Positions 1,428 to 62,696 of a DNA stretch of 64,000 nucleotides are shown here, in pieces (position 1 is the stretch's first letter; every line of letters begins with the position of its first letter). Location of the stretch: positions 41,602,001 to 41,666,000 of the forward strand of contig NC_059428.1 of the NCBI RefSeq assembly GCF_021028975.2, written 5' to 3'. Below the pieces are notes generated by a model. The model saw only the letters and a program-made list of their open reading frames with translations. It made no database searches and was not told the DNA's origin. The translations under genes and the position numbers were made by a program. Source of the stretch: Sphaerodactylus townsendi. Its lineage: Eukaryota.

Positions 1428-1481
1428 CAGTTCTCACATGTGGGCTTTCAGTTGTTTCTCTGCTTGGGAGCTTGGACGGAA
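1428..1481 (-). CDS. ABI3BP: ABI3BP exon, 54 nt: VPSKLPSRETTESPHVRT
   Basis: tttgttttcag acceptor, G|GTAATG donor, open. Confidence 0.75.
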
Positions 1482-1867
1482 CTGAAAACAAAACATTAGA
1501 ACTTGGTAAGCTTATGTTGGTTCTTCTGTGAAAGGAAACCAACAAGTTCAATGGAAAAGAAAAAGTTTTATGTAATCTTTGAGGTCAAGTGAAAATTCAG
1601 AATTAGTGAACTCAGATATAGAAGCAGAATATTGAGGGAATATTTTGATGACAATTCTTCGCTTGAGCTGTGGAGATTCCTAAATAGAGAAGCAGAGAAA
1701 AGGTCTGGAAATAATTACCATCAATGCACCCTGCAGAATAATCAACAAGTAAAAGTAAGCATGTTAACTTATGAACTTTTAAGAACAAGGATATATTTTT
1801 AAGTGCAGATACTTAAGTAGACAAAGATAGATCAAGTTATTTTTAGAGGGAAAAGAAATCAAATTAC

Positions 1868-1939
1868 CCGAAGTATCTTTGGGGTCATTGAGAACATGAA
1901 TATGAAGATTAATTGATCCTGGGATTGTTTCCACTGGTG
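1868..1939 (-). CDS. ABI3BP: ABI3BP exon, 72 nt: APVETIPGSINLHIHVLNDPKDTS
   Basis: tttgttcccatag acceptor, G|GTAATT donor, open. Confidence 0.75.
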
Positions 1940-2105
1940 CTATGGGAACAAAAGAGTGTAATAATTGAGACCAAGCAGAGGTTGTCTTAATCCATGAGTG
2001 GAGAACAAGCAGCACGAGAATCTCACAAAAGAAAATATGGCTCCTATTCTGTGAACGCAAGCTCTTCCATTGCCTCTTCTGTCTGTGCATGTCTTGCATC
2101 TTTTA

Positions 2106-2210
2106 GGCCCTTTCCGCACGGGCCTCCGGGCGGCCTCACACCGGCAGGAATTCTGCCGGTGGAAGGGTGGGGGCCGTTCGCACGCGTTTTTGGCCCATGC
2201 AGAAAGGGCC
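2106..2210. mobile_element. Short GC-rich MITE (PIF/Harbinger-like)
   Basis: TIR GGCCCTTTCYGCAYGGGCC at both ends; flanks tta / taa. Confidence 0.75.
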
Positions 2211-2426
2211 TAAGATTGTAAGTCTTCTGGCAGAGATTTTTGTGGCTTCTAAAATGGCAGCTGCAGGCAGCATCCACCTGGAAATAATTTTCTGACTTGC
2301 ATGCACTTTCAGTGGCAACAGAGTCAATATGAGTAATTATTTCCTCTTACTCAGCCATCTTGCAGTTTCTTTTCCTGATTTATTTGTCAGTAATTTGGAT
2401 AAAAGTTCCCTATACCTTTTCTCTTA

Positions 2427-2567
2427 GGCCCCTTCCGCACACACAAAATAATGCGTTTTCAAACCACTTTCACAACTGTTTGCAAGTGGATTTTGCCATT
2501 CCGCACAGCTTCAAAGAGCACTGAAAGCAGTTTGAAAGTGCATTATTCTGCATGTGCGGAATGAGCC
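2427..2567. mobile_element. PIF/Harbinger-like MITE, about 140-bp family
   Basis: TIR GGCYCMTTCCGCACA with 3-bp TSD TTA; sibling copies at 3611 and 50270. Confidence 0.8.
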
Positions 2568-2734
2568 TTATATTTCTATAAAGAAAAGGACCTATTGGGT
2601 AAACTAGTAGATCATGACAATGCTAATGTATTATAGCAATGATCAATTTTTGGAAAACAAAGTTCTTAAAATGTCCTCCATGGAAAATGGATCAAATGTA
2701 AAATTGTCATATTCAAGAGAAAAGAGGAACCCTT

Positions 2735-4260
2735 TTTTTCTCCTTGTTTTTTTAATATTTATTAAAATATAAATATGAAACTGATACAAACAAAATTCTA
2801 AGACAGAACTACAAAACTATTATAAAACACCAAATATATATGCTTAAAATTAATTTCTCATTCTAGACAGGAAAGTATTCCATTTTCTGAATTTACATTT
2901 GGTCATGTAGTTGGTTTACATGGATAAATATATTCTAACCAATCCTCCACCTTTCTCCCAATTCTGAGCAAAAATTAGCCTTGCAGATGTTACGGCATTA
3001 AGCACAAATTCACAAACATCTTTAAAAGAGAGATCTGTATAATTTAATTTCAGAAATTCTTGAGGATCTGCATCATAGGGACTTGGAAATAGCTGTTGCG
3101 ATCATATGCCAAAACTCTTTTGTCCTCTCACACTTCCATCAACTGTGTATAAAATTGGCATTGGTAGACCCACATACCCAACAATTCCCATTAGCCTCTT
3201 AATACATTTTTGCTAATTTATAGGGAGATAGGTCCTACTGATGTAACATTTTTTATTAAATTTTCTTATTTCATCTTTATATAATAATGCCTGTAAGAGA
3301 CTTTTTTAACCTGTAGATACTGAAACTGAGGAAACTGCCCTTTATTTAAAGATAAAGAGTTCTGCAAAGGTATCAACTGTTTGCCCATAAGGATTTTAAA
3401 AGAAGGAAATTTGAAAATTTAGGAAGAATTACATTATAATCTGATACCTTCTTCCCAAATTTTAAAATTTCCTTCTTTTGCAGCGTGGCTAAATTGTTTG
3501 GATCTGATCACAGAGGTAAATGGTGAAATTCCAGGAGCTAATTTTGGTTATTGTATTTACCTCTTTAATTCTCAAAGGAACTGACATAAAAGATTTTTCA
3601 ACTAGAGTCAGGCCCCTTGTGCACATGCAGAATAATGCACTTTCAATCCAATTTCATAATTGTTTGCAAATGGATTTTGTTATTCCGTACAGCTGCAAAG
3701 TGCATTGAAAGTGAATTGAAAGTGCATTATTCTGCATGTATGGAAGGGGCCTCAGTGCTGTATCTTTATCGTCTTTCATCCATTCTGTTCTCCAACCTAT
3801 TCTAACCAAATTGTAATACTTCTGGACATTGGGAATTCCGAAGCCAGCCCTTGCAACCTACCCTGGGCATCTTGAAAATTTATTCTAGATCTCTTATGAT
3901 TCCAGATAAAGTTAGATAAACATTTTGGTATATTTTTAAATCTAATTCTTGTTATTGGACTATTCCAAAACAGAAATTCAATTTAGGTAGCATTAAAACA
4001 TTTTGATTAAGTCTATGTTACTTAGAAATATCAGTTTATCTGCAATTAGGTGGATAATAGGTTTTGAATGTACTTCATGACTTCCTCAAAATTCAAGTGA
4101 TGCAGAACTTTAGTGCTTTTTGGAATATAGATACCAAAATATTTAACAACACTGGTTTGTTTAATTTCATTTAGCAAGCCACATCATACGATTTAAGCCA
4201 TGCACGGAAATTTATTGGCTCAATGTGATATAACAATTTAAAGTTGTGATATTAAACCTT
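2735..4260 (-). mobile_element. Decayed L1/Tx1-clade LINE 3' fragment, interrupted by a MITE
   Basis: Minus-strand remnants of VKYFGIY and of a C-terminal CWxC...NFxH...WKC zinc-finger-like region; T-rich tail on the + strand. Confidence 0.6.
3611..3751. mobile_element. PIF/Harbinger-like MITE (same family as 2427)
   Basis: TIRs with 3-bp TSD TCA. Confidence 0.8.
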
Positions 4261-4510: not shown

Positions 4511-4585
4511 CAGGTTTAGTCTGTGATATTTCTGGTTTGCCAGATGTTTTGGGTTTGGAAGGAATGAATTTTGTTTCTTTTGGAG
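4511..4585 (-). CDS. ABI3BP: ABI3BP exon, 75 nt: APKETKFIPSKPKTSGKPEISQTKP
   Basis: cttttttccag acceptor, G|GTAATT donor, TKP end. Confidence 0.9.
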
Positions 4586-4996: not shown

Positions 4997-5071
4997 CCAT
5001 AGTTGTCTTCAGGTGTCCAGAAGACAAAGTAGGTTTGATTGTAAGTGGCTGTGAAGTTGTTTGATAGAGTG
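4997..5071 (-). CDS. ABI3BP: ABI3BP exon, 75 nt: ALYQTTSQPLTIKPTLSSGHLKTTM
   Basis: ttcctcccaacag acceptor, G|GTAACA donor, TTM end. Confidence 0.85.
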
Positions 5072-5954: not shown

Positions 5955-6029
5955 CAGGTTTGGTCTCTAGAATTCTTGGCCTGGGGGATGGTTTTGATTT
6001 ATTAGGAAAGAAGTATTCCACTGCTGAAG
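5955..6029 (-). CDS. ABI3BP: ABI3BP exon, 75 nt: ASAVEYFFPNKSKPSPRPRILETKP
   Basis: aaatttcag acceptor, G|GTAATT donor, TKP end. Confidence 0.87.
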
Positions 6030-6487: not shown

Positions 6488-7899
6488 CTAAGCACATGGT
6501 TTACACCCTGAAATGTTTTTTGCACTGTAGTTCCAACCATATTTCAGTAGATTTATAGTAGCATGCCAGAAACCAAATCTACATGTAAGCAGATTCTACA
6601 TGTAAGCAGATTTTTCACAATACTTGCACCTCAAAATGATGCATCTATAATTCTGTTCAGGCTACTCATGCAAAGTACATCATATCCAAGTAAGTTAATT
6701 TGTATACAGCCAAGGCCATTTATGATGCGTGAACCTTCTTTTCTTTTTTAAAAGAAAAAACTTGTATTTTCATATGGAAAACTAATCTTGCTATCTGCTT
6801 TGAACTCCGAGATTAGGACTACTATAGAAATGCTGCTGCATTTATGATTTCATCATGCAAAGAACAGTAATCACTAAGTATTTTGCATCAAAGGGCAGTT
6901 GAGTGCATGGAAAGAGAGAATAATTATTAGTAATGCTTTGACACGAAGTTCTCCTTGGAAATCCTTTTCCTGAGGGAATTAAAAAAAACCATGACCATAA
7001 GTAAAGAGTATAACCCAGTGCTGCCTATTTCCACTCAAGACTGCCTATTTCCACTCAAGACTGAGGTGTCATGGAAGTGACAGATCTTGAGAGAATTATA
7101 TAATTTCAATTGGAAACAATGGGGAAAAATCATGAAGTGGGTGGAGAAAAATAAAAATTTGTGTTATATCAACTGAAGAAGGTACTCTGATTCCAAAGAG
7201 TTGTAATCATTTTATCACATATATGACTGCACAATCTCTTTTGCTGACAGTTCTATTGCATTTTCACAATATAAAACATATATTCATACATTAAAAGTTA
7301 CTGTCAAATTGAAGAAATTAAACCCTTAAATTATGTTAAGGTGCTAGGGTTTATCCTGCATTAATCAATAAATGACACCTGAATTAATGATGGCATTAAA
7401 TATGAGTTTCCAAATGTTATACCCATAATGCCCTCAGAGTCAGGACAGGCATCCTGAATATAGATCCAGTCTTATTTTCACCCTGTTCTTCCCCACTGAC
7501 TATATATATATAGCGTCATCAAATGCCCTGTCAAAAGTTTTTTTTAATCCAAGAATATTTTATGCTTTTTATGACATCTTTCCACCCAAACAGGGTCCTC
7601 AAGGCAGTGAACATAGAGCATTAAAACATTTCAATGTTATTTAAAATAAAGTATATATACACAATATTTCAATTAAATACAGAATCATTGGGTTGGAGAT
7701 TACCTCCAGGGTCATCCTGTCTAATCCCCTGTCCAATGTGTGTGTGTGTTTATATGTAAAACTCTCTCTCTCTCTCACACACACATACATATAAAACCTA
7801 TATTTTTATAAATTAAAAATACAATAACATATATCCAGTGTTCATAGGAAAGATTTCACCACTTTCTTCTCCTGCTTCAATCTACTGAGTTCCCTAAAA

Positions 7900-10768: not shown

Positions 10769-10798
10769 CAAGTTGTGTTTCAGGTATTGCTTTTAGAG
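10769..10798 (-). CDS. Candidate 30-nt exon: ALKAIPETQL
   Basis: aattcag acceptor with a weak pyrimidine tract, G|GTAAGC donor, phase 1-1, IPET-like motif. Confidence 0.3.
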
Positions 10799-13676: not shown

Positions 13677-13751
13677 CTGGTTTTGTTTGAGTTACATTTG
13701 GACTGGGTGATGTTTTAGCCCTGGATACCACACGTCTGCTTCCTTTAGAAC
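13677..13751 (-). CDS. ABI3BP: ABI3BP exon, 75 nt: GSKGSRRVVSRAKTSPSPNVTQTKP
   Basis: gcctttcag acceptor, CAG|GTAGGT donor; paralogous to the exon at 19774. Confidence 0.9.
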
Positions 13752-18234: not shown

Positions 18235-18879
18235 CATGATGACAAATGATGGGAGAACTTTCTTAATTTGGCTGAACTGTCACAGGGAAACGAAGAGGGA
18301 TGATGTTGTCAAAAAATTTCATAGCCAGAATCAACTGGCAGGGGTGGGTTTTCCAGGCTGTGTGGCTGTAGTTTGGTAGTTTTTGCTCCTAATGTTTTGC
18401 CCACATCTGAAAATCCCAGGCATATCAATACCAGACCTGGAAAGATCGGATAACACAGGTTCACAGGAATGAGTAGGCAGCCACCCCAACTTATAACTGG
18501 TCCCTAAGAGTCACTCCCAAATGGGAGTCGAAGAAGTAAAATAGACAGCTTGTTTGGAAAAAGCACACAAAAGGACAAGGAGGAACCAAAGGAACAAAGC
18601 ATGAAGTTGTGCCAAGGTTGAAAAGAAACCTTTATTAGGTTTCTGCCACCTTGGATCCCATTCCTCAAAAGAGGAATATCTATATAAATTCAAGATCAAG
18701 ATTAATGCTCTGCCTTAAGTGCTCTGCAACATCTCTAGCTCTGCCTTGATTAATTCCCATTTATCTGGGTTTGCTTTTCTGTAATGTTCATGTGAATTAA
18801 TATAACCTTTTAACATAACATGTTCTGACAAGGGCTGCCAAGTCCAGTGGGTGGGTATATCCTCCACCCCCAGATCTAA

Positions 18880-18920
18880 AAGAAGGAAGGAAGAAAGAAA
18901 GGAAGGAAGGAAGGAAGGAA

Positions 18921-18970
<50 letters not shown>
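18880..18970. repeat. (GGAA)n(GAAA)n microsatellite
   Basis: Directly visible. Confidence 0.95.
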
Positions 18971-19773: not shown

Positions 19774-19848
19774 CAGGCTTGGTTGATGTTATACCGGGGC
19801 TAGCAGATGTTTTAGCCCTGGCAGGCACTCTACGAGTTTCTTTTGGAG
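19774..19848 (-). CDS. ABI3BP: ABI3BP exon, 75 nt: APKETRRVPARAKTSASPGITSTKP
   Basis: cctcctctcag acceptor, G|GTAAGT donor, TKP end. Confidence 0.9.
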
Positions 19849-21167: not shown

Positions 21168-21215
21168 CTGTTGTTGTTTTTGGTTTTTCAGGTCTAAAGG
21201 TAATTGTCTCAAGGT
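21168..21215 (-). CDS. ABI3BP: ABI3BP exon, 48 nt: DLETITFRPEKPKTTT (a possible ancestral 60-nt form to 21227 lacks AG)
   Basis: gacacag acceptor, CAG|GTAAAA donor, LExITF motif. Confidence 0.7.
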
Positions 21216-23708: not shown

Positions 23709-23777
23709 CAGGCTTGGTCTGAGACACATCAGGGCTAAACAAAATTTTAGGTTTTGAAGGTTCTTGGTCTTCTTCCT
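23709..23777 (-). CDS. ABI3BP: ABI3BP repeat exon with altered acceptor: EEEDQEPSKPKILFSPDVSQTKP (69 nt via internal AAG; a 78-nt form to 23786 has CAT instead of CAG)
   Basis: Clear repeat peptide and G|GTAAAT donor. The expected acceptor reads tttcAT; an in-frame AAG lies 9 nt downstream. Confidence 0.6.
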
Positions 23778-24339
23778 CTTTTGGAAATGAAATAAAGAAC
23801 ATGAGTTATAAATTGCAGAAATCTGGGTCTGACCCCAGGTGCAATTAACATACATACAATATGTGTGTGATTCCATGAGAAAAACATACATCGTTATTGT
23901 ATAGAAAGATGAAAGAGAGGTGTACACAAGAGATTTTTACAACATCTATTAAATTCCGAAAGGAGATCTGGAGGACTGATAAAATGGCCAGACTGCCTTG
24001 GGAATGGTGACAAAGACTTTCAAACACAAACAAAAACTGCTCCAGGGAGATGTAATCTACTCTGATGTTTTTCTGTTGAAACCTGTGGCTAGGGCATGAA
24101 TAGTGATAAGGTTGAAGGAAGGCAAAGCAGAGGAAGATTTGTCTGTGGTTCTTCTTTTCCATGAAGCAAGCCTATTTTTGGCAATTCAAGCAATGAGTCT
24201 AATATACACTTGACCCTGAAGTCAACCTTCAACTAAAAAACATTGTTCAGCAGTAGTATCATGAACCAAGAACTCCTCAATGTATCATATAATAGAGTCC
24301 ATTCAAAAAAGAAGAAAGGTTCAGTCACTTAGATGTGAA

Positions 24340-24720
24340 ACGTTTTACAAAGAAATTTCAACAGAAATGTTAATATGCTCCCCTCCCCCCCCCCCCCGCT
24401 GGTTTTGAGTGGATTCTAATGATACTAACCTACAAAAACGCAAGAAATTACTTTATTATCTGACAATGGCAGTGAGAACTGTTGTGGCCAGGCATTGAAA
24501 AAGTCAAGAAATACCAACAATTGATGAATGGCTACAGAAGATTCAGGACTATAGAACAGCAGATAGATTAACGATGTTTCTAAACAAAAAATGTCTTGAT
24601 TCTTTTCTCAAAGTATGGGAACCTATGTTACGATACTTGTATAGTATTGATCCCCAAAATAAGACCTTAATAATAGCACTGTATAATCTTATTTGCAACC
24701 CTTAGATGTACTGTTTGAAA
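24340..24720 (+). mobile_element. L1/Tx1-like LINE 3' fragment
   Basis: Decayed YLTMAVRTVVARH*KSQEIPTIDEW...KVWEP, typical of the ORF2 C-terminus. Confidence 0.55.
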
Positions 24721-24790
24721 TTTTTATTCTCATCTGCATCAATTGTTATTGTTACTTACGTAAAAGTTACGTAAAAGTTACGCATCAAAT

Positions 24791-24999
24791 NNNNNNNNNN
24801 NNNNNNNNNNNNNNNNNNNNNNNNNNNNNNNNNNNNNNNNNNNNNNNNNNNNNNNNNNNNNNNNNNNNNNNNNNNNNNNNNNNNNNNNNNNNNNNNNNNN
24901 NNNNNNNNNNNNNNNNNNNNNNNNNNNNNNNNNNNNNNNNNNNNNNNNNNNNNNNNNNNNNNNNNNNNNNNNNNNNNNNNNNNNNNNNNNNNNNNNNNN
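24791..24999. other. Assembly gap (209 N)
   Basis: N run. Confidence 1.
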
Positions 25000-25013
25000 C
25001 CTCATATATTACA

Positions 25014-26125
25014 CTAGCAGGATGCCCGTGCTTTGCCATGTGGTTTGTAATATGTTTGTAATCTGTTTTGATTGTATTTTACTGTAGCGGTCTGGTTAAT
25101 GTGAGGGTTGGTCGAGAAATACTTTTTCACAGCCTGTCTGTTAGCCTCGGAGTGACAGTCCGCATACCATCACAGCCTCTCTATGAATTTCAGGGTGACA
25201 TTCAACATTCAGTAGACCTGTCAGTGCACTTTGAATGTTGGCATGAAATTTCTCTCTTTCACCTGGTGGGCTCCAAAAGTCATCATTTGGAAGCAGCTGC
25301 TGAATTTTCGGGATGCAGAAAGGAAGTGTTCTGCCATTGGATGCTGATGAGTGAGAAGGCTGTGAAGAGGTTCAAGGTAGGGTTGAAGGGCAGGGAGCTG
25401 GACTGTACCGCCACTGCAGCACATTCCTGGGTACTCATCCCACCACTTCAGATCACGACACCAAGCACAGGGTGATCGGAGGCCAAGAGCAATAAACTTG
25501 TCTCCACAGTAAGCAATCTGATGTCCATATGCAAAACCCGACAAATGTTTAGTAGTCCAAGGTGATAGTGTGGTTTGTAATCTGTTTTGATAGTATTTAA
25601 CAACTGCTTAGATAGCATTGCACGCCAGGGTGGTTGGAGGAGTACTTTTTTACACCCTGTCTGTTAACTTTGGGGTGACATTCAGCATACTTTTTTGCAG
25701 CCTGTTTGTGAACTTTGGGGTGACATGCAGCATATTTCCTCACAGCCTGTCTGTGGACTGATGGGTTTGTTTTCAATAGGTTCACATGTGTTGTGGAGGG
25801 CGGTGGTAGAGTGCAGTTGGTGATGGACATGAAGCTGGTGGTGTTGAACTGTCACTCTTAGAATGTTCGTGCAGCATGTCAGTGGACTGAGGGGCTGGTT
25901 TGCCCTTAGAATGTTCGCGCAGATGGCCAGAGATGAGCAGTGAAAACAGTAAATAGGTAATAAATCAAGTGAAAGTGAATATTTTGAGAAATCCTTTCTC
26001 AGTGAGCACCTGGAGTACGTAAGGAACAGGTGTGCCAAATTTCATGTGTGTGGCTTTGGTGGTTTTTGAGTTCTGTTGATGAGTCAGTGAGTCACTCAGT
26101 GGTATTTCGCATTTATAGATATAGA
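25014..26125 (-). mobile_element. Helitron deletion derivative retaining a RepHel N-terminal fragment
   Basis: A|TCTATA 5' end and ...GCACGGGCATCCTGCTAG|T 3' end. ORF 25221-25544 carries CxxC..LKW..E..GMCC..G.V.LP.L...EPL..LL...HFL...RKF.SCFQM..FGA...FMPTFKV. Confidence 0.92.
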
Positions 26126-28790: not shown

Positions 28791-29351
28791 GGAAAAAAAG
28801 ATATCAGGGTTGCAACCCTGGGTTGGGAAATTAATGGAGATTTTGTGATTTTTATTAAAAGAGCATTACCTCTTTCTGTCATTGGTGGCTGAGGTCTAAA
28901 TGTAGTAGTTTGTAGGACTGCATAAAAACAAGAAAATACATTTGTTTTAAAAAAGGCAAATATATTGTACTTTAAAAGAAAGGATATTTTTTATGACAAA
29001 GACTTGAGAACCACGCATAATTCTCCCATAGGTTTTTAATAGGGCTGTCAGTTTTCACATGAGGTCTGGAAATCTCCTAGAATTACAACAAATTATAGAA
29101 AAAAAATAAAAAATGCTCTCAACAAATATATCTTCAGAACTGGTGACCATTATTTCATCATTAGAACCATGTAAACATAGATGAAATGTCAAAGAAAAAC
29201 TTCTGAAATAAATATAATCAGTAATACGGTTTGTACTGAAAGACTTTTTCCATTCCAATTATTTTCACAGTTTTAAGTATTCATATTGATTAATGCATGT
29301 CTATTTTATAATTTTATGAATTAATTGTTTTAAATAACTGAGAAAATTTAC

Positions 29352-29423
29352 CAGGTTTAGTTTGTAGAATATGAGGGCTTATTGTTGTTTTCGTGCTGAA
29401 AAGATGATGCTTGACTTTTGGAT
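29352..29423 (-). CDS. ABI3BP: ABI3BP exon, 72 nt: DPKVKHHLFSTKTTISPHILQTKP
   Basis: ttctctttcag acceptor, G|GTAAAT donor, TKP end. Confidence 0.87.
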
Positions 29424-29544
29424 CTGAAAGAGAAAAAAAGCCCTATAAATTATTAAGAAACTTATAAACCACAGTCTGGCATTTCAGGTCAGAAGGCAAA
29501 GAAGCAAAATCATGCTGTGGAACAAAAGCAGCCACACAAAAAAA

Positions 29545-29918: not shown

Positions 29919-29960
29919 CTATTATTGGAAGTTCATTGTTAAATGTAATAGATTCCAAGA
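29919..29960 (-). CDS. ABI3BP: ABI3BP exon, 42 nt: VLESITFNNELPII
   Basis: ttttcccttgtgcag acceptor, AG|GTAATG donor; LExITF motif shared with the exon at 21168. Confidence 0.8.
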
Positions 29961-31746: not shown

Positions 31747-31815
31747 CAGATTTAGTAAGTGGGAGTTCAGGGACTGTAGATGGTTTAGAAGAAAAGAGGT
31801 CTGTTTCATCTAAAG
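31747..31815 (-). CDS. ABI3BP: ABI3BP exon, 69 nt: ALDETDLFSSKPSTVPELPLTKS
   Basis: ttcgcccccag acceptor, G|GTAATT donor, open. Confidence 0.85.
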
Positions 31816-32404: not shown

Positions 32405-32485
32405 CAGGTTTATTATCAGGCACTTCTGGCATTGTATAGTCAGTTTCTTTAGACTGAGAAGGGATAGAGGCTGGTTCAGAAGAAG
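32405..32485 (-). CDS. ABI3BP: ABI3BP exon, 81 nt: ASSEPASIPSQSKETDYTMPEVPDNKP
   Basis: tcttttttcag acceptor, G|GTAGAG donor, open, KP end. Confidence 0.82.
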
Positions 32486-36046: not shown

Positions 36047-36121
36047 CCATTGTTGTCACTGGATATGCAGTAATGTGAGACACTTTAGTAGTGACAGGAA
36101 CTGGAACCAATTTGGTGGTAA
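36047..36121 (-). CDS. ABI3BP: ABI3BP exon, 75 nt (78 with the upstream CAG): VTTKLVPVPVTTKVSHITAYPVTTM
   Basis: ttactccagcag tandem acceptor, G|GTAATA donor, open. Confidence 0.85.
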
Positions 36122-38328
36122 CTGCTGGAGTAAAGGATATTATCTTGAGATAGTTGAAAACGAATCACAGATCAGGATTGCAGACCTAGAATTCCAAGAA
36201 TGTAGCATGTTCTTCTTTAATTATATATCATTTTTGAGGTCCTCTTTATCATAAATATGATTCCAAGTGGATATCTGATGAAGATGGTCTTCAATATACT
36301 ATTGGACTCAAATCTAGCTGGTCTACTGCAGACCAACACAGCTACTTTCTGAAGCTGGGTTAGAGTTAATGTGGGGTAGAACTGAGTTAAGACTGGAGAT
36401 ATATGAGTTCATATACTCATTCAACTATACAATTCACTTAGTGGCCTTAGACAAACTCTCAACCTAACCTGTTCAACATGGATGTTATGGAGTTATATTA
36501 AGTTACTTCCTCTTATTTCATTTGACCAGCTTGGAGAAAGGATGGAAGATAACCTAGTAGGGCTTACTGCAAAGAATATCTCTATGTTTCTTTTTTTGAT
36601 GATATTTTCTGTGCAGGCTGCACATTTTTGAAGATAGAGGCACCAGACTTTCAAGGTGGCTCCAGGAGGCTCTCCTGGCAATAGCATCCAGTCTTGCTGA
36701 ACTTTGCTTCTGGGGACAGTGGGAGGGGTGGGTTGAGAGAGTTCTGAGAGAACTTAGCTACCAGGCTTCATGTGCAAGAGCGGGGAATTGACCCAAGGCA
36801 CTGCAGAGCAGAGAATCTGGGCAAATTTCTTGGGGTGCCTGTCAGAGGCACATTTTTAAAGCTAGTGGCACCAAATTTTCAGGGTCTCAATCAGAGACTG
36901 TCATGATGATACTACCTGAGTATGGTGAAGCTTGGTTCAGGGGGTCCAAAGTTATGGACCCTCAAAGGGATTAGCCCCCATCTCCTGTTAGCTCGCATTG
37001 GAAACAATGGGGGATGGGGCACCCACTTTGGGGGTCCATAACTTTGGACCCCCTGAACCAAACTTCACCAAATTTGGGGGACATCATAAGGAGCATCTCT
37101 GGATGATACCCTGAAATTGTGGTGCCGCTAGCTTTAAGTATGCACCGCTCTGCAGGCTGCAATGCAAAAAAATACCAAAAAAAAGGCCCGAATGCCTTGC
37201 CGTTCATATTCAGGCAGGACATATTTGGCTGATTTTGGCCCAAATATGCCTGAATATGCCCAGATTCAGGCCGAATCCAGGATCTGGTGTACCCAAATCT
37301 CCAAGTCTAGTATTTAGTTGAATAAAATAAAAAAAGTATTTGGGAATGAGTCTTCTAAATTTAGTTTGAGGTATGACAGTCCTTGAGCTGAGTTTGGCAC
37401 ATGCAAAAATGTCCTCTGATACCTGTTCCTTCCTCTCTTATATCGGAAAAGCTATGAATCTTTTACACAATGTCCAGTTTGGCAGAGGTTTCCAAGGCAT
37501 ACCCTGCCTTCACATTGGAAAGGATACTTGCTGATTTCTTGATGCTGGGAATTGGGAAGGGGCTGCCAGTCTGTGATCAATTTTTGAAAAGGGGAGAGAG
37601 GAGATGTTATAGCTATGAGGGAGTCAGAGCTTGGCCAGGGAAGGTCTGGCTTCCCTGGATGAAGAAGCTGGCACTGCCACTTTTATGTTTCAACTTCTAA
37701 AAACTTGGGAAAGCTGAACTATTTATTTGAGGTTTGACCAAATTGACACATGAAAAATGTTAAGAAAAGGAAATGGATACTATATAAGTCTGTTTAGTTT
37801 TATAGAAATTATTGTGAATTGGGTTAGTATGAAAATTAAAATGGCTACAGTTATTGTTTAAATCAGAAATATTTGCAAGGAATGATAAAAATTGAAAAAT
37901 GCATCTGAAATTTATTTTATCCCCAGTTTCTGTTGGTATTTCAAATACTTCCAAAATTTAATCCACACTATTATTTATTGCTAGTTGTGATTAGCCAGAA
38001 TTCTAACATGAAATGCAAGCCATATTTAAATAATGACAAATTACTGTCAAATTACCTCACAAAATATTATAATTCAGCTCATAAAATGAAAAACATGAGT
38101 ACTGATTGTGGTATCTCATTGGACTATTATAAATCATGTTTTTAATCACAGAAGTTGGTTTATCAAATGTTACTTGTGATTATGTATAATTTATATAATG
38201 TGTTTTTAGATTACATAAGAAAACAGTAAACAACATATGCTCTGCTTTTATGAATGTCTGTCCAAATCAGTCAGAAAGAACCCTGATCCATGCCATGGAA
38301 CAAAGTAGTTATAGGAAAGTACAATTAC

Positions 38329-38403
38329 CCGGTACAGTCTTTGGCTCTTCTAGATGGGGAAGGATTTGGGGTTTGGAAACAGTGATTTTTGTTTTACTGA
38401 GAG
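38329..38403 (-). CDS. ABI3BP: ABI3BP exon, 75 nt: ALSKTKITVSKPQILPHLEEPKTVP
   Basis: ttcctttcag acceptor, G|GTAATT donor, open. Confidence 0.88.
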
Positions 38404-39670: not shown

Positions 39671-39745
39671 CCTGTGTTGTTCTTGGTAATTCAGGGTTTT
39701 TATAAATTTTAGGTGTGGTGCTCTCCCATTGAGGCTCTTTTTCTG
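39671..39745 (-). CDS. ABI3BP: ABI3BP exon, 75 nt: AEKEPQWESTTPKIYKNPELPRTTQ
   Basis: ttttttgtcagCAG tandem acceptor, G|GTAATG donor, open. Confidence 0.88.
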
Positions 39746-40949: not shown

Positions 40950-41021
40950 CAGGTTTAGTTTCTGGAATTTTGTGTTGAGCAGGTTTAGTTGTAGAAGGAA
41001 CAAATTTTGTTTCTGGCAGAG
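40950..41021 (-). CDS. ABI3BP: ABI3BP exon, 72 nt: ALPETKFVPSTTKPAQHKIPETKP
   Basis: gtctttcag acceptor, G|GTAATT donor, TKP end. Confidence 0.9.
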
Positions 41022-42284: not shown

Positions 42285-42359
42285 CTGGAGTAGTTTTTAA
42301 CCGTTCAGTAATCCGAGAAGTTTTAGGGATATTCTGCTCCAATGGTGGTGGTTTAGAAG
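42285..42359 (-). CDS. ABI3BP: ABI3BP exon, 75 nt: ASKPPPLEQNIPKTSRITERLKTTP
   Basis: tatttttctag acceptor, AG|GTAACA donor, open. Confidence 0.9.
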
Positions 42360-43042: not shown

Positions 43043-43117
43043 CAGGTTTCACAAGCAATCCTTCTGGAGTGGCAGAAGGTTTCCACTTAAAAGGAGTAAG
43101 TGGTGTTTCAGATGGCA
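43043..43117 (-). CDS. ABI3BP: ABI3BP exon, 75 nt: VPSETPLTPFKWKPSATPEGLLVKP
   Basis: ctcttttcag acceptor, G|GTAACC donor; PSETP motif. Confidence 0.92.
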
Positions 43118-43599: not shown

Positions 43600-43674
43600 C
43601 CAGTGTTGCCCTTGGCCAGTCAAGCTTAGCTGTTTTAGGTGTTAGAGATTCCAGAATAGGTTCATTTGTGACTG
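43600..43674 (-). CDS. ABI3BP: ABI3BP exon, 75 nt (72 with the alternative CAG): AVTNEPILESLTPKTAKLDWPRATL
   Basis: ttcttccagCAG tandem acceptor, G|GTAATG donor; strong match to recalled human ...ILDSIPPKT...PRATL. Confidence 0.92.
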
Positions 43675-45365: not shown

Positions 45366-45398
<33 letters not shown>

Positions 45399-48908: not shown

Positions 48909-49626
48909 CTTTAAAAAGAAAAGAACAGATGGGAAGAAGCAATAGGAACTGCTCTGCAAGCGCTGAAACAAGAGGGCAATTTTACTTTCATCCTCCTCAC
49001 AGCCCAGCCCCCCTCCCACCCACATGGCTAATCAACTTTCCAGGGGTCACAAGGGACTTCTGGTGGGAAGAGAATGCAGGAAAAATCCATGACCTCCAGT
49101 ATCTTTGGCTGATGGATTGCTGGATACAACCCAATTGATGAGATACTTATCAAATTCTCACTTCCTTAAAATGATATGTGTTGGTGAAAGTCTTAATTTA
49201 AAACGTTTTTCAGTAATAATATATTTCAGTAATAATAATGTATGGATGTAACTTCATGTTTTTCATGTGTGTAATTTAAAATCACCAAGCTCAAGGTGAC
49301 TGTAAATAAATAAGTCCTTTTTATTATTAGGAGGGCAGGTTTTGAAGAAATTGCAATCACCTAAATTAAACTGGATGGAATGTTTAAATAAAAAATAAAT
49401 AGAACATTGTCCGCAGGGACCAGACAATGGAGATATAGAAAATCAGAACCATACTTAGCGCTGGAGCTGTACAATACATGTGTTCCACATGTGTCCTGGA
49501 ACAGATGAATAAATAGGAATTTGTTTGTGCTCCATAAAGAAAGGAAAAGGAACACATTTTGACAAGAGATTTCAAGATAAAAATATAATCCAATTCTGAA
49601 TTTTGTAGCTCAATAAGCAACTCTGA

Positions 49627-49937: not shown

Positions 49938-50269
49938 CTACATTATCAAAATTTGATGAACCTCACTAACTTCAGGAGGAACTAGCTTTAGGTGTAAAAA
50001 CATTTGTTTCAAAATTTGCTTTTAGAAGCATCCTAGTATATTCTTCAGCAAGACATGCTCTGTGGCTGTATGGACATATACTGAGATTCTCTCCGTTTAC
50101 AGGGAAAAATGAGATATTTCTGCATGATGCAAGGTTATATCCATAAATCATCAGGGTTAGGCTTGGGGGCACTTCTCTTTGGTGGACAAATTGCCATTGA
50201 TTAGGCTTTCCTCCAAATTCCTGTAACAAACTGGAATGCAAGCAAAATCATACAACACTTTTTGCAAAA

Positions 50270-50420
50270 GGGCACTTTCACACCTGCAGAACAATGCACT
50301 TTCAATCCACTTTCAATGCACTTTGCAGCTGGATTTTACTGTGCAAAATAGCAAAAACCACTTGCAAACAGTTGTGAAAGTGGATTGAAAGTGCATTATT
50401 CTGCATGTGCAAAAGTGCCC
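50270..50420. mobile_element. Harbinger-like MITE (family of 2427, opposite orientation)
   Basis: gggcacttt...aaagtgccc TIRs; body homologous to 2427 and 3611. Confidence 0.8.
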
Positions 50421-51213
50421 AAAGTCTACTTTTTGATGTTGTATCATTACACAGCCAGAAAGTTCTTTCCTTCTTAAAATAGACATGATACCTTCCACTT
50501 TCCCAATAGCAGTCTGGTGTCACTGGCTGGCACTTGCCAAGCTAAGTTGCTCCTGTAGGATTCTGCTACATTGTTTGGCTCAGCCAACAGCAGCATGGGA
50601 GAAGGGAATTAGCAAGCCTATGCCAGTCACAGTCATCATCACTGGCCCACTCTGAGCAAAGTAGACTCAACATTGCTGCCAGTGATCTAGAGCTCAACTT
50701 GGCTTGCTAGTGGAAGCTTATTTGCACCAGATTCCATATAATCAATCTGGATTTTATGATGAATGTTGATCGACCCACTATATTTTTGTGTGAAAGGACA
50801 AAAGACCATACCTACAAAAGATTCACAAGAGCAGTGCTTGATATTCCTTTTTTAAATTAGATCCACAGTACAAGGGGCGGCAGTAACTAAGGTGATCATT
50901 TTTTCTGAAATGAGCCACTTTTCGCCTGAAGACTCATTCAAAGTAGTTCACAGTCAAGCCACAACAGTACAATCAATCAGCGACAACAAATAATCAACAA
51001 AACCTTTGAATAACTGAGTTTCAGGAAATGGCATGGGAGGAATCCGCTAAACCTCTGTGTCACTACTCTGATCAAATGCAGATTTAAAGTAAATATAAAA
51101 ACATCAGGGAATCACCTCTTAAATTACCTGTATTTTATGGTCTTTGACCCTTACAACAACATATCTGCATCTGACCCAAAACAAAATACAAGTATAAGCC
51201 CTTCTAACATTAT

Positions 51214-51774: not shown

Positions 51775-53909
51775 TATGATTCTAATTCCTGGGACTGGTG
51801 ACAGCTCCTATGAATTATAAAGCAACTTTAGAAGGAAGCCTCAAAATAGCTGAAGAATTAGTTCACTATTACACACATTATACTAAAAAGATATACCATC
51901 CATGATTTTAATTTACATGAACTTGCAAAAGGAATTTCCTTGCAAACATGGCAGACTTGGAAAAGTGATTTGCTGCCAACAATTACACAAAACGACCTTG
52001 GAAATTATAAAAGGGGAAAATTGAATGATTCATAACTGAAAGATGTACAAATAAGAATCTATTTACATAGATTCAGAGTGCTCAAAATTCTATGATACAC
52101 ATGACAATCATTTTAACAAAGATTTCTTTTTAGAAACTTTAAATGCACTGTGAATTGGCCACCCACACTGTTTCTAAATAAAAAACCAATATCTCCCTCT
52201 TGATATCATTGAAATGCTTCTAAAATTTCCAAGAAAACACTGCAGTGGAAAATGACAACGTTGTTTAAACTTTCCAAGAAAATGTATTTAAAGTTTTGAC
52301 AGATAACGATATCTGATAAATCTGCTTCTGAATATCTTAAAGATATTTGTGGATCTCAAATCAAGAAGGGAAGTTTGGGAAGATGGAGATCAAGCAATGA
52401 AATCCAATGAGGACATTCTTGAGTATGCTGTTTCAGAGTCTTGATCTTAAACAGTTTCACAACTAGGGATATGTACCATTTTGGGGGGGGGGGATTTTTT
52501 CAGATTTAAGAGACCTGAACTTCCATAACAGTGTGTGTGTGTGTGTGTGTGTGGGGGGGGGGTTCCCCAGCTTTTTCATATTCTTCAAAATGTTTCATTT
52601 CTATTAAACCTTGAACCCTGCATTGAGCTCTGCATCATTTGTTGCCTCTGAAATTCATGTGGAGTTTGGGGTAGTGGGCTAGAGTCAAATGCTGGGCTTA
52701 ACTCAGCCACACCCAGTGTTAATCTCTGCCCTGTCATCTCCAAAGGCCATGTGGACTTCAAGGGTGGCAAGGTAGGGTTTAATGTTAGGCTGGCTAAACC
52801 AAACCAAGAGTTCAGCTCTCTGCTGCCTGCTGCCTCCAAACCCATGTAGATTACAGTGGTGGTCAACAGACAAGTAAGGGGGGCAGGTGGGAAAAGAGGA
52901 GCTCTCCCATCTTTTTTTAATAGCACCAGGGTCCAAACGGCCTGGAAAATTCTGGGAAATAATTGGCATTTTTCAGGCTCTGCTTTTCTGTTTCCTTATA
53001 TTGCTACCAATTTTTTTTTAGCTCTGGCTTTACTGAATGCATGACAATGCTTGTTGCCCACTCCCTACAAAACCACAATGTCTGCTCTTGCATCTGAACC
53101 CCACAACATCACGAGAAGGAACAACCAGTTGCATAGTCTGCTGAAAAATATCTGCCTCTTTTTCAAGTCATTTTGTTCAATTCCTTTCATAGTTCAAAGC
53201 AATTAAAAAAATGTTGGACTTGACTGTTAGAATTATTTTCCCCTTCTCCTTTCCCAATTCTGTCCTCACAATTATTCAACTGTTTTACTTCCTGCCTCCC
53301 CTGCCCCAGGCATTTTATTTATTTGATCATTATGCCACCCTTTCCCAGAGTCCAGCTCATTTAGCATTCTCATGCAATGCCTCCTTCTCTCTTTTCTCTC
53401 ACATCCAGTTAGCCTCTGGTTAGCTGAGTTTCTCCAGATGCTTTGACTACTCTCTAACTTGCCTGTCCTTTCAGGGCCAAACTTTATGCCATTAAAAAAA
53501 GATTTTGCCTTCCTGCAATAGGCAACATAATTTTTAAAACCTGTGTGGTCCTGTTTTGGCTTAGGGTCATAGCATTTGGGAAGGAGGGGCCCATTTCCTC
53601 AAGCCAAAACTGTCCAGTGGGGAGTTATTTGCATAATTATGGAGCTGGACATACACATGCATTGGCTGGGGGCAGGAGAGCCTTTATGCCCCCATGCCAT
53701 GATCTTGACTAGAATTGGTCCTCGGTAAGGATTTAAAAGTGATGTTCTGCACAACTGCTATGTGGCTGGATCTGAATCACTGAAAACATTTTATTTAGTT
53801 GGTTCCTAATCTTCTCACCAAACCGCTTCACAGCCCCACCCCCAATTATTCTGTTTTCACAGTTTGTTCTGAATTCATGAGTTCCATTAGTAAGTACCCT
53901 AAGTGCTAA

Positions 53910-58127: not shown

Positions 58128-58199
58128 CCAGCTTTGTCTGTGTGGTTTTTGGAGCAGTCGTTTGTGGCTGCGAAGGAACTGGCTGCATTTCATGTGAAG
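58128..58199 (-). CDS. ABI3BP: ABI3BP exon, 72 nt: ASHEMQPVPSQPQTTAPKTTQTKL
   Basis: ttttactgtag acceptor, G|GTAATT donor, open, phase 1-1. Confidence 0.88.
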
Positions 58200-58488
58200 C
58201 TACAGTAAAAGAAATTGCCAAGCATTTAGAGAACAATGATACAGAATTTATGACACAAGAAGTGTATTTTCTAAGACTCATATGGTAGAGTGACTGGGCC
58301 TTCTGGGACATCATTTTGCACAAAATGGAAAGAAATATAAAATGATGGAATAAAGTTCCTTAGTCATACGAAGAACTAGAACAGATATTACACCATATAT
58401 CTATTGTGTGCCTGTGAGTACGCACTGACCATTTAAAAAATGTTGTCAAGTAAAAATTAAATCAAAGGACACACACAATTGCCATTAC

Positions 58489-58557
58489 CTAATTTTCCCC
58501 TGGGCGTTTGCAGTGTGGGAGTGTGTATTTTAGGAAATTCTGGAAACTTGTGAGGAG
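58489..58557 (-). CDS. ABI3BP: ABI3BP exon, 69 nt: APHKFPEFPKIHTPTLQTPRGKL
   Basis: ttctccatttag acceptor, G|GTAATG donor; PEFP and PRGxL motifs. Confidence 0.9.
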   Translation of the reverse strand, partial: LLTSFQNFLKYTLPHCKRPGEN

Positions 58558-61031
58558 CTAAATGGAGAAAAGAACAAAAACACGTAACAATTAATCTACA
58601 AATCCTGAAAAAAATAGTATTTGCAACATAGTGATCTGCTATAAAAGAAAGAAACAAAATCTCATTCACCTCTTTATTCCAGTAATGGTGAACATATGTG
58701 CCCTCATTGGACCAGACTGTGGGGCAAATAAGCTTTTGGCTGGCCCTCTCTGTCAACATTCAATTGAAAGGTACCTGGATTCTGAATAGTAATGAATGAA
58801 GGATGGCAGAGAACACATGACGCTAACTAAAGAATGCAGGACTCTTCAGGTCTAACACAGATGCAAGTGTTTTTACATAGATTAAGATACTTGTTAAAGG
58901 CTAAATCACAATGGTTTGATCCCAAAATATTTTTTGCATATGCTGGAGTCTTAGCACCAGTAGAAATGTACTGAGACAACACTAGCAGTATTCCATCCTA
59001 GATGACTGGACTCAAGACATACAATCCAGTAGTATGCATGGGATGTGAGAATGAAGGAAAGGGGCTGTTGACAGCATTATGTCACATTTGGGGAATAGTC
59101 AGAAATTATATCACATTTCTTTAGGAACAGCCTGAGAGCTCTGTGACATAATGAGAGTTTCCTTAACTGATAATAAGGAGGTTTGATAGGTTTTCCTTGG
59201 AAATGGCTTGTCCTTATAAAACAACTACATTTTCTCGGTTTTCCCCTGATGCTGCTCAGAGAGGTGGTAAAGAATGAATACCCCTGCCTGCACCATGGGA
59301 CTGGCAACCCTAAGCTAAAACTGTTAACGTCCATTCTGTTTTCAGGGCAATTTTTAAAAAAGTGTTTTACAATTCAATAGACTTTAGTATGTTTTAATTC
59401 AGGTAAATATTGTTTTCTATTTCTTGTAAATTGTTTTCTATTTCTAGTTAATTTTTTTTTACCTGTTGGGGTTTTAGGTATACCCAAGCCTATCATTTTA
59501 CTTTTTAAAATAACTTGCATTAATTATAAAATTTAAGGATTTTAAAATATTATAATCCATTTGTTATTAAAAAAACCCATATAAATAAAATGAAATATAA
59601 TTAAATGAATTCTGTTTGCTGTTTATAAAATATCCATACATAAATATTGCAGTCCTAAGTACATGTTTGGGGTGGGGGCAGGTTAGCCTTACTGAACAAG
59701 TTTCAATTGGATTCTGAATAAACCTGCTTAAGATTGTATTCAAATACTTGAAAGTAAGGGCATGCATCAATCTTTACAGTATTTTTCAAATTCAAGTTAA
59801 ATAAACCAGATTTTTTTGAGAATCCGGACAAAGGCCTATTATGCATGGAAAGCTTACCTTGGGACTATTCTCTGCACAGTGGCCTTGCAGTGGGTTCTCC
59901 TTGGGTTTCTCTATTTACACACCCTCTTAGGTACTCAGTTTTTCTGCAGAGAACTCTCCTGGCCTGGTTCTCTTAACTCAGCCCATCAATTTATTCTTAA
60001 AGGCACAGATCTCATTACACTTGTTAGTCAAGATTGTTGGCTCAGTCTTTAAACTGCACTTCTATAGATTTTTCTGTTCCAAAAATAATCCCCCTCCAAT
60101 AAAAGAGCAAAGCAATTCCCTGGATCACATGCTACTACAGAAGGGGACACTGTGCTACAGCTGATATTCTCCCCCCCCACCACCACCACTGCTGACACGG
60201 GAGCACAGAGGCTTGTTATTTCCAAGCACTCTCTGTCAATATCTCAATATCTAAATCGAATGCAGAGATCGTCATGTTTTGGCTAAACCCATGTGAGTGA
60301 GCTTCTTTTCTTTCACTTGAATGAGCTGGCAATATGGAAGGGAGAATGAAGAAGGTGTGGATGGCAGTGAGAGGGAGTGTGAACACTGGCTGTGGGTGGA
60401 GGGAAGATATTCAGGGTGAAGATGTGTTCATTGGCAAATCAGCTTGCTCTGGCAGTAAAGCAAAATTAAAATTGTGCTAGAAGTGGTCTTGCTTGCTGTA
60501 GAGAGAATAAAAAGTGAAAGAAGGGCTTGAAGAACTACGTTTGTACAAGAAATCTATGTCTGTACAAGAAATCTCATTTACCCCACAATGCAGCAAACAT
60601 GTTATGCATAACTGGCCAAAAATTTAAACTTCATACCGATATAGGTTTTTCAACTTTTTTTGAACATCTAAAAATTTTAAGCTCTATTAAACCCTATGGG
60701 GCTCCGGAAGGTGTTTTTTTAAAGGTATAAAACCATTAAATTTGAAGTGTAACTTCAGTTGTCTCTTTTTAGAAGAACTCCCAGGTTTGGTAAACTGCAG
60801 TGTAACTTCAGTTGTCTCTTTTTAGAAGAACCCCCAGGTTTTGGTCAGGGGCTTCTATTTTATGGACCCCCAAAGAGAGACTCCTATAAAATTGAACCCC
60901 CACCCCAATCTTTACCAAACCTGGGGGTTCATGTAAGGAGATTCACCAGCAGCTATGGTACAAATTTTGTGCCTCTATCCTTTAAAACAGGCCCCCAGAG
61001 TCCCAGAAAAATAACCCACTGACATTATATT

Positions 61032-61424
61032 GGTCCTTTCCACACGGCGGCGGCAGGGCTTCTCCACTGGCATAATTTATGCCGGTGGAGGTGTGGGGAC
61101 TGCTCACATGGAACCGCCTCTCGGTCGCCCTCCCTCCCTCACCTGCCTCTCCAGCGTCATTCTGGAGGGCTGCAGGGACAGCGTGGGCGGGTCCCTGCAG
61201 TCCTCCAGACGACGCTGGAGAGGCAGGTGAGTGGGAGTGACGGGGAAAGGGGCAGCTTCCCTGCGGTGCAGTTTGCACCACGCTGACGAGAAGCCATCCC
61301 TTCAATGGCGGCTTCACGCCACTGGGGGGGAGCGAGGAGGGCGCTGCTGCAATGCAGCAGCACCTCCTATGCGAACAGCTCCACCGTCCCTAGGACACTG
61401 TTTTTGGCCCGTGCAGAAAGGGCC
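61032..61424. mobile_element. Harbinger-like MITE nested in another repeat
   Basis: ggtcctttccacacgg ... ccgtgcagaaagggcc TIRs. Confidence 0.7.
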
Positions 61425-62621
61425 TTTGATTTATTTCAGACCTGAGGATTGCAGAAAAAAATGTTCCCAACATACAAAGATGGTTTTTTGAGGTAGGGGT
61501 ACCAAATGTTTAGCATAATTTCAGATGACTCTCCTTAGAAGCACCACAAAGTTTGGTGAAGATTGGGTCAGAGGGTCCATTTTTACAGGGGCCCATTTTT
61601 CTCCATTGAAAACAATGGAGATTGAATGGGGCACCATCTTCCGAAGTTCATAAAATTGGATCCCCTGACCCAATCATTACCAATTGGGATGCTTCTAGAA
61701 AGAGTTATCTGAAGCTACACTGCAAATTTGAGACCGCTACCTCATAACACAGCCTCCTTGAGTCCTGCAAAGATACCCTAGTGTAAAATGGTCCTGATTG
61801 GTTTTGCAGCTTTTCCCCTGGATTTGCCTTTTTGGCTCCATTGAAATTGTGCCCTTTTTCAGTTTTAAAAAAAGTATTCAAAGGTCCTAACAGCTTTTTT
61901 CTCAGTTTGGCATATTTGATGTGCACATCCCTACTTGCAAATGAAACAGTGCAGGATATTTTGTTTAATATTAAACACTAAATTGTACATGGAAACAAGG
62001 AATGTCCAAATTAGTTATTCAGTGTGTTCCACTTTTTTCCCCATTTTTTTTTGCCAATTCAGGCTTAGGGACAGTTTACATTTTGGAATGAGTGGTCTTT
62101 CTCGTCATCTGCAAGATAAAGTAGTATAGACTTGATTTTAAATTCAAATATTCTTTTGATCACTCACACTGAGGATCACATTTCACTATTTTAACAGCTG
62201 GTAGAAATATAAACTAATACATTACGGTAGTCATCTCTGTGATTATATATTCATGAGACTCAAATCTGTCAAATACTGCTTGCATTTCGTAATTCAGTCA
62301 AAACAGGTTCTTGATAATTTTCTGAGTTACTGGAAAGGTCCTTTTTTTTCAAGGAGGAAGGTACCTTATAGACCTTCTATAATCTATAATCCTATCAATT
62401 GTAGGATTAAATCCTATATGAGAAGGATCACAAGTTTATGTTCATATAGTCCTAGGCTTATGTACACCTATGATAGTCATGCCATCAGAATATGTATGTG
62501 CATGTGTGCTTTTTGACAATATGAATGAACTTATCCACACCTATAATAAATTAATTTATCCACACCTATAATGGAGTCATAGTCCTGTCAGCAAAGTGAG
62601 TACCATAAACAAAGTATTTAC

Positions 62622-62696
62622 CTAATGTGTCAAGTGGCAATTCAGCCATGGAGCTTATTCTAGGCTTTGAAGATTCCAGTTCACTTTCAGTATGTG
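62622..62696 (-). CDS. ABI3BP: ABI3BP exon, 75 nt: AHTESELESSKPRISSMAELPLDTL
   Basis: ttctctttatttag acceptor, G|GTAAAT donor, open, phase 1-1; ELPLxTL motif. Confidence 0.88.

What the first reader, a model, noticed from the sequence alone, without database searches (positions are those of the whole stretch)
1428..62696. Hidden array of at least 24 symmetric phase-1 mini-exons: a modular, length-tunable spacer in ABI3BP
Seen: every exon is 42-81 nt, a multiple of 3 and phase 1-1, so any subset splices in frame. The encoded 559 aa are P/T/K/S-rich with no Cys. Known: ABI3BP is an extracellular matrix protein with FN3 domains flanking a repeat-rich, alternatively spliced middle. Inference: the array could combinatorially set the length and O-glycosylation of a disordered linker, as in titin PEVK. 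The set here may include lineage-specific exons missed by annotation.
Basis: partly seen in the sequence, partly recalled or inferred. Interest (0 to 1): 0.7.

Follow-up and report, generated by a model that had tools for sequence, protein, structure and literature searches.

The report
Gecko ABI3BP telescoping exon spacer
These 24 small exons are real and already annotated: they encode the likely floppy middle of a gecko's ABI3BP, a known extracellular-matrix protein, and RNA reads show runs of them being skipped, which would shorten that middle, so the finding is mostly ordinary.

Summary
Real, but already annotated. The window holds exons 12-35 of a 48-exon ABI3BP (TARSH) gene on the minus strand. 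The 48 exons translate exactly to a public gene model. All 24 are 42-81 nt, phase 1-1 and Cys-free, and are shared with five other geckos. No lineage-specific or unannotated coding exon was found; the one extra candidate (52713-52793) lies in a dispersed repeat. Phase 1-1 holds for 40 of 46 internal exons of the gene, so it does not by itself show combinatorial splicing. RNA reads support 4 of 4 adjacent junctions tested and show sample-dependent skips of 9 and 11 exons. Splicing looks like nested block skipping at hub sites, not free choice of subsets: 18 of 20 multi-exon skips in the 5' block of squamate models re-enter at the exon matching 29352-29423. Extras: a dead ancestral exon at 7015-7109, and weak donors (22 of 24 lack +5G). 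O-glycosylation is untested. Human ABI3BP linker splicing is published, and this scan met the same array before in skates and camel.

The parts
62622..62696 (-). ABI3BP exon 12 of 48 (75 nt, phase 1-1)
58489..58557 (-). exon 13 (69 nt); its donor joins exon 25 in 4 reads, an 11-exon skip absent from the 12 models
58128..58199 (-). exon 14 (72 nt); exit of the 10-exon skip in model X12
43600..43674 (-). exon 15 (75 nt); exit of the 9-exon skip in model X11, also seen in reads
43043..43117 (-). exon 16 (75 nt)
42285..42359 (-). exon 17 (75 nt)
40950..41021 (-). exon 18 (72 nt); DNA-level paralogue of exon 33
39671..39745 (-). exon 19 (75 nt, or 72 nt with a tandem acceptor)
38329..38403 (-). exon 20 (75 nt)
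36047..36124 (-). exon 21 (78 nt, or 75 nt with a tandem acceptor)
   Evidence: 9 loose-end reads join it to exon 22
32405..32485 (-). exon 22 (81 nt); skipped singly in models X7 and X8
31747..31815 (-). exon 23 (69 nt)
29919..29960 (-). exon 24 (42 nt); skipped singly in model X4
29352..29423 (-). exon 25 (72 nt): hub re-entry exon for the long skips of the 5' block
28870..28917 (-). exon 26 (48 nt)
23709..23777 (-). exon 27 (69 nt)
   Evidence: 8 and 7 loose-end reads join it to exon 26
21168..21215 (-). exon 28 (48 nt)
19774..19848 (-). exon 29 (75 nt); donor has +5G
13677..13751 (-). exon 30 (75 nt); donor has +5G; usual exit of the 3' skip block
7015..7109 (-). dead remnant of an exon still coded in Eublepharis, other squamates, turtles, crocodilians and birds: acceptor AG reads AA, in-frame TAA, 20-nt tandem duplication, 95 nt long
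5955..6029 (-). exon 31 (75 nt)
4997..5071 (-). exon 32 (75 nt)
4511..4585 (-). exon 33 (75 nt)
1868..1939 (-). exon 34 (72 nt); skipped in models X6, X9, X10
1428..1481 (-). exon 35 (54 nt); re-entry of the 3' block skips in this species' models
52713..52793 (-). exon-like open frame inside a dispersed repeat; rejected as an exon

Best explanation
The window holds 24 annotated, frame-preserving exons of a gecko ABI3BP gene, which encode a likely unstructured spacer between two fibronectin type III domains; reads show runs of these exons skipped, and the spacer's length is likely set by nested block skipping at a few hub splice sites rather than by free choice of any subset. Shown: exon set, phase, gene identity, adjacent junctions, skips of 9 and 11 exons into exon 25, and different inclusion among three RNA runs. 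Inferred: two skippable blocks (about exons 13-24 and 31-34 or further) flank a mostly kept core (exons 25-30); in the 5' block the exit varies and re-entry is at exon 25, in the 3' block the exit is usually exon 30 and re-entry varies. Inferred: weak donors lacking +5G make the block exons easy to pass over. Inferred: the array arose by old exon duplication and still gains and loses units. Predicted, untested: O-glycans stiffen the spacer, so length sets the reach between the N-terminal FN3 and the C-terminal FN3/TARSH_C end in the matrix.
For: Identity: 48 exons translate exactly to model X1; Pfam fn3 x2 and TARSH_C; GC-AG first intron as reported for ABI3BP (PMC7242645, passages). Reads: 4 of 4 adjacent junctions in 28800-32600; loose ends at the exon-25 acceptor match exon 13 (29 of 30 letters, 4 reads, X5) and exon 15 (29 of 30, 6 reads, agreement 0.67, X6). 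Inclusion:skip at that acceptor 27:6 in X5 and 1:6 in X7, Fisher p=0.0014. Models: 18 of 20 distinct multi-exon skips starting in the 5' block, in 7 of 8 squamates, resume at the exon-25 counterpart; 6 of 7 multi-exon skips of the 3' block leave after exon 30. Donors: +5G in 2 of 24 window exons against 15 of 23 elsewhere in the gene, p=6e-5. Human cartilage junctions also centre on hub sites: one acceptor with 4 donors, one donor with 6 acceptors (PMC9239745 supplement table 8, rows 3-33). Disorder: no helix or strand over residues 211-873, pLDDT about 30, in a model of isoform X11. Turnover: repeats expanded in snakes, Anolis, a woodpecker and a crocodile; dead exon at 7015-7109.
Against: The isoform models are computed from short reads, and I held only part of each species' set (for example 5 Rhineura and 4 Lacerta models whose numbering runs past X20), picked by 90% clustering and top-120 lists. 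Varanus breaks the pattern (0 of 2), turtles and birds are mixed, and only 8 of 17 distinct long primate skips use one acceptor. Single-exon skips exist too, so some combinatorics remain. Read counts are small, from three runs of one study, and may include copies of one molecule; the X7 loose end is an unresolved mixture (agreement 0.57). The exons are paralogues, so the donor test is not on independent units, and exon 25's acceptor is not visibly stronger than several others. The structure model is poor overall (mean pLDDT 40.4; TARSH_C also under 50) and holds only 15 of the 24 exons. No test of glycosylation or function.
Confidence: 0.7

Rival explanations
1. Free combinatorial cassette array: each exon is chosen independently, giving up to 2^24 linkers that tune length and O-glycan load.
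For: All 276 exon pairs join in frame without a stop; single-exon skips of exons 22, 24, 26 and 34 appear in gecko models; human models are numbered up to X67.
Against: Long deletions are contiguous blocks sharing hub sites; no multi-exon skip removed exons 25 or 27-30 in the squamate models examined; phase 1-1 also holds for exons of the FN3 and TARSH_C domains.
Confidence: 0.12
2. Tolerated noise: the linker is a low-constraint spacer, and skips, gains and losses are tolerated because they keep the frame; the length differences are not selected.
For: Units are lost (7015-7109; two further ancestral exons with no remnant) and expanded freely; a 10-exon cluster was lost in the mouse/rat ancestor (PMC5740500, passage).
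Against: Linker exons keep 50-100% identity across geckos; the same hub exon is used in 7 squamates; inclusion differs among runs, and in human it shifts with osteoarthritis grade and osteogenic differentiation (PMC9239745, PMC13518942, passages).
Confidence: 0.15
3. Mutually exclusive exon cluster of the Dscam type.
For: PMC5740500 lists a cluster of 10 mutually exclusive exons in human ABI3BP (passage); some gecko exons are paralogous and of equal length.
Against: Adjacent exons are spliced to each other in reads (4 of 4 junctions), and model X1 carries all 24.
Confidence: 0.03

Closest known systems
ABI3BP / TARSH (target of Nesh-SH3): public models XP_048348871.1-XP_048348883.1 (isoforms X1-X12, named Sphaerodactylus townsendi by the source)
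   Same: The 48 exons in G000 translate exactly to X1; all 24 window exons are in it.
   Different: The exon 13 to exon 25 skip (263 aa) seen in reads is in none of the 12 models; the dead exon at 7015-7109 is not part of any.
Human ABI3BP (ENST00000471714, 67 exons, 1786 aa; PMC9239745)
   Same: Same domain order, disordered spliced middle, block skips with hub sites, GC-AG first intron.
   Different: The primate linker is longer; 11 of the 24 gecko window exons beat all 200 shuffles against the orangutan long form, several hitting the same paralogous unit, so the middle is not 1:1.
Titin middle-Ig/PEVK splicing under RBM20 (PMC3575840, passages)
   Same: Graded length change by skipping contiguous exon blocks at border exons.
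   Different: Titin is intracellular and uses one donor (exon 50) with many acceptors; the gecko 5' block is the mirror image. P+E+V+K is 39% here. No regulator is known or tested here.
Phase-1 symmetric exon arrays of extracellular modular proteins (for example sponge aggregation factors, PMC5400394, passages)
   Same: Nearly all introns in phase 1, read as a mark of exon duplication and shuffling.
   Different: Here the units are short disordered peptides, not folded domains.

Membership tests
ABI3BP/TARSH | C-terminal TARSH_C domain (PF21731) | tested here: met
   E=2e-49 on X1; exons 32-38 kb below the window on the same strand
ABI3BP/TARSH | Two fibronectin type III domains flanking the middle | tested here: met
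   fn3, 2 stretches; folded blocks near residues 116-213 and in the C-terminal part of the model
ABI3BP/TARSH | Orthology to annotated ABI3BP rather than to the other TARSH_C gene | tested here: met
   Exact translation to a model named target of Nesh-SH3; best hits across vertebrates carry that name. A second TARSH_C locus lies on contig C1; that it is FNDC1 is recalled, not tested
ABI3BP/TARSH | GC-AG first intron conserved across vertebrates | tested here: met
   Donor of exon 1 is GC; PMC7242645 passage
ABI3BP/TARSH | Alternatively spliced, disordered P/T-rich middle | tested here: met
   Skip reads, 12 models, composition; disorder rests on a low-confidence model
ABI3BP/TARSH | Secreted into the extracellular matrix | not testable with these tools
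   N-terminal hydrophobic helix at residues 2-19 in the model; matrix location from PMC6426741 passage
Mucin-like O-glycosylated spacer | Dense O-glycosylation of S/T | not testable with these tools
   S+T 24%, P 16%, below the roughly 40% S+T I recall for mucin domains; the search for ABI3BP with O-glycosylation gave 7 papers, 6 listed, none about this by title or abstract start
Titin PEVK | Sarcomeric protein, PEVK-dominated repeats | tested here: not met
   Different gene and domains; P+E+V+K 39%. It works like titin only in block skipping
Titin PEVK | RBM20-dependent repression of exon blocks | not tested
   No knock-down data or motif test here
Mutually exclusive exon cluster | Only one exon of the cluster per mRNA | tested here: not met
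   Adjacent exons joined in reads; X1 holds all 24

The most novel reading that the evidence does not exclude
The squamate ABI3BP linker is a telescoping molecular ruler: a ladder of weak donors lacking +5G competes for one conserved hub acceptor (exon 25), so a single tissue-set splicing parameter slides the spacer through about a dozen lengths spanning more than 260 residues, the mirror image of titin's one-donor, many-acceptor system, in a secreted matrix protein.
Probability: 0.3. Interest if true: 0.45.

Novelty: already known. Interest (0 to 1): 0.2.

Why it matters
The gene, its exon array and the splicing of its disordered middle are annotated or published, so the finding as written adds little. 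What may be of use: the skips appear ordered around hub sites that are conserved across lizards, which turns a vague 'many isoforms' into a testable ladder of lengths; ABI3BP linker inclusion changes in human osteoarthritis and bone-cell differentiation without a known mechanism or function; and the dead exon gives a datable example of unit loss in the array.

Tried and rejected
Pfam on 19 single exon peptides: 0 of 19 hit. Candidate extra exons 52713-52793, 49286-49360, 36762-36800 and 10769-10798: all 4 score like shuffles against 226 proteins; rejected. Remnants of four exons coded in other reptiles were sought with a frameshift-tolerant profile over 464 kb, both strands: 1 of 4 found (score 30.2 against a maximum of 25.6 in 12 shuffles, in the expected 7.6-kb intron); the other 3 stayed within the null range. 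No indexed RNA run held the stretch; the three RNA runs were added by species label. The first read lay (16.5 kb) was swamped by repeats: 2 of 11 adjacent junctions were among 15 rows shown, 112 rows not shown; bin depths there were not used as proof. Junctions outside 23709-36124, apart from the two skip donors, were not tested with reads, nor were 7015-7109 and 52713-52793. Orthology of the primate hub exon to gecko exon 25 could not be settled: too many paralogous units. A universal fixed re-entry rule was rejected: birds and turtles are mixed, crocodilians use another exon. DNA paralogy is only partly detectable: 12 of 276 exon pairs beat all 300 codon shuffles. Two primary papers on TARSH/Abi3bp were not held and were not seen. 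The search for TARSH with 'splice variant' gave 0 papers.
Full report
Observation. A scan for AG...GT exons found an array on the minus strand only (the scoring in 5 and 12 was trained on the array and is circular). The window is G000:C4:41602001-41666000. A search with Pfam TARSH_C found three exon matches 32-38 kb below the window on the same strand and three at a second locus on C1. A TARSH_C exon retrieved proteins named 'target of Nesh-SH3'; twelve isoform models X1-X12, named Sphaerodactylus townsendi by their source, were collected. All map onto 464 kb of G000, and 48 exons with canonical sites translate exactly to X1. The window holds exons 12-35: 24 exons, 42-81 nt, 1671 nt, 557 aa, P 15.6%, T 14.5%, K 10.6%, S 9.7%, no Cys; every exon ends in G, so 276 of 276 ordered pairs give A, V, D, G or E at the junction.

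What is not there. No unannotated coding exon was found. The best extra candidate, 52713-52793, is in none of the 12 models, has no relative above shuffled scores in 226 proteins and sits in a repeat with 22 other matches in G000. All 24 annotated exons align in Euleptes, Heteronotia, Gekko, Paroedura and Eublepharis at 50-100% identity, and most in other squamates. Phase symmetry is not special to the array: 40 of 46 internal exons are phase 1-1, including FN3 and TARSH_C exons, a pattern known for modular extracellular genes (PMC5400394, passages).

Expression and splicing. Three raw RNA runs of one study (X5-X7, organism C, added by species label; some positions differ from the window in every read) were laid on 28800-32600. 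All 4 adjacent junctions were listed with CT..AC ends; reads in X5/X6/X7 were 14/19/7 (exons 25-26), 27/12/1 (24-25), 12/10/1 (23-24) and 11/1/0 (22-23). Loose ends join exon 22 to 21 and exon 26 to 27. At the exon-25 acceptor, loose ends match exon 13 (X5, 4 reads, 29 of 30 letters: a skip of 11 exons, 263 aa, in no model) and exon 15 (X6, 6 reads, 29 of 30 letters, agreement 0.67: the X11 skip); X7's 6 reads are a mixture with a 10-letter in-register match to exon 16. Inclusion against skipping at this acceptor is 27:6 in X5 and 1:6 in X7 (p=0.0014; small counts, reads not surely independent, tissues unknown).

Pattern of skips. Comparing shorter with longer models within species, 18 of 20 distinct multi-exon deletions that start in the 5' block resume at the exon-25 counterpart (this species 2/2, Paroedura 5/5, Heteronotia 2/2, Pogona 4/4, Rhineura 3/3, Lacerta 1/1, Hemicordylus 1/1, Varanus 0/2). 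Of 7 multi-exon deletions in the 3' block, 6 leave after exon 30. None removed exons 25 or 27-30. These are partial sets of computed models. Crocodilians converge on a different exon (6 of 6 long deletions), turtles and birds are mixed, and primates send 8 of 17 distinct long deletions to one acceptor. Measured human cartilage junctions show hubs of both kinds: acceptor chr3:100808235 with 4 donors and donor chr3:100846372 with 6 acceptors (PMC9239745 supplement table 8; I saw 31 of 41 ABI3BP rows). Only 2 of 24 window donors have +5G, those of exons 29 and 30, against 15 of 23 elsewhere in the gene. That such donors are weak is established knowledge, recalled; that it causes the skips is inference.

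Evolution. Other reptiles code exons that the gecko models lack. A frameshift-tolerant profile of one of them, built from 9 proteins, has its best hit in 928 kb of searched sequence at about 7058 on the minus strand, in the expected intron, above all 12 shuffles. The sequence at 7015-7109 shows AA for the acceptor AG, an in-frame TAA, a 20-nt tandem duplication and a length of 95 nt. Eublepharis still codes this exon; the Euleptes, Heteronotia, Gekko and Paroedura proteins aligned do not. Three other such exons left no detectable remnant. Snakes and Anolis sagrei have multiplied units resembling exons 22-23, and a woodpecker and a crocodile other units. Twelve of 276 exon pairs in the window are still detectably paralogous as DNA.

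Protein. Pfam finds two FN3 stretches and TARSH_C. An AlphaFold2 model of X11 has no helix or strand from residue 211 to 873 and pLDDT near 30 there, but the whole model is poor (mean 40.4), so this is weak support for disorder. Glycosylation and binding were not tested.

What is in print. PMC9239745 (passages, supplement rows): the 1786-aa, 67-exon human form and differential inclusion of the disordered cassette in osteoarthritis. PMC13518942 (passages, supplement rows): the disordered region is partly spliced out during osteogenic differentiation, with one junction peptide. PMC5740500 (passage): a 10-exon cluster lost in mouse and rat. PMC7242645 (passages): conserved GC-AG first intron. PMC6426741 (passages): matrix protein, function largely unknown. 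PMC5824844 (one table row): a circular RNA from chicken exons 31-34. PMC3575840 (passages): titin block skipping. In six searches (listings and abstract starts only) I saw no paper on the reptile array or on hub-ordered skipping in ABI3BP; subscription journals are mostly not held, and two primary papers could not be read. Four earlier notes of this scan describe the same array in skates and camel.

Verdict. The claim of hidden, lineage-specific exons fails, and free combinatorics is less likely than nested block skipping. Already known; interest 0.2.

Noticed in passing
window 7015-7109 (-): Dead remnant of an exon that Eublepharis, other squamates, turtles, crocodilians and birds still code; broken acceptor, in-frame stop, 20-nt tandem duplication.
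   Followed up: yes
L021:822-1054 and L021:1932-2164 (just above the window): Perfect 233-nt inverted duplication covering the acceptor and the first 35 nt of exon 11; it could pair in the pre-mRNA and hide the splice site, or be an assembly error. Exon 11 is in all 12 models.
   Followed up: partly
donors of the 24 window exons: 22 of 24 lack +5G and all start G|GTA; only exons 29 and 30 have +5G, and exon 30 is the usual exit of the 3' skip block.
   Followed up: partly
exon 1 donor, about 95 kb above the window: The first intron is GC-AG, as reported for ABI3BP in other vertebrates.
   Followed up: yes
window 29538-29584 and 18879-18970: (AAAG)n tracts, pure pyrimidine on the transcript strand; the first lies 115-160 nt upstream of the hub acceptor of exon 25. 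May be chance.
   Followed up: no
window 39671-39745 and 36047-36124: Tandem (NAGNAG) acceptors give one-residue isoforms (models X2, X3, X8).
   Followed up: partly
P0067, P0207, P0234 (snakes), P0171 (Anolis sagrei): Large tandem expansions of units resembling exons 22-23, acidic in snakes, taking the protein to 1800-2100 aa.
   Followed up: no
window 2417-2570, 3594-3766, 26331-26569, 35631-35796, 36799-37182, 50267-50435: Short repeats with 18-36 overlapping matches in the 464-kb region; 55 repeat intervals cover about 10.5 kb of the window. Not classified.
   Followed up: no
G000:C1:95195695-95198491 (-): Second TARSH_C-coding locus; probably the paralogue FNDC1 (name recalled, not tested).
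   Followed up: no
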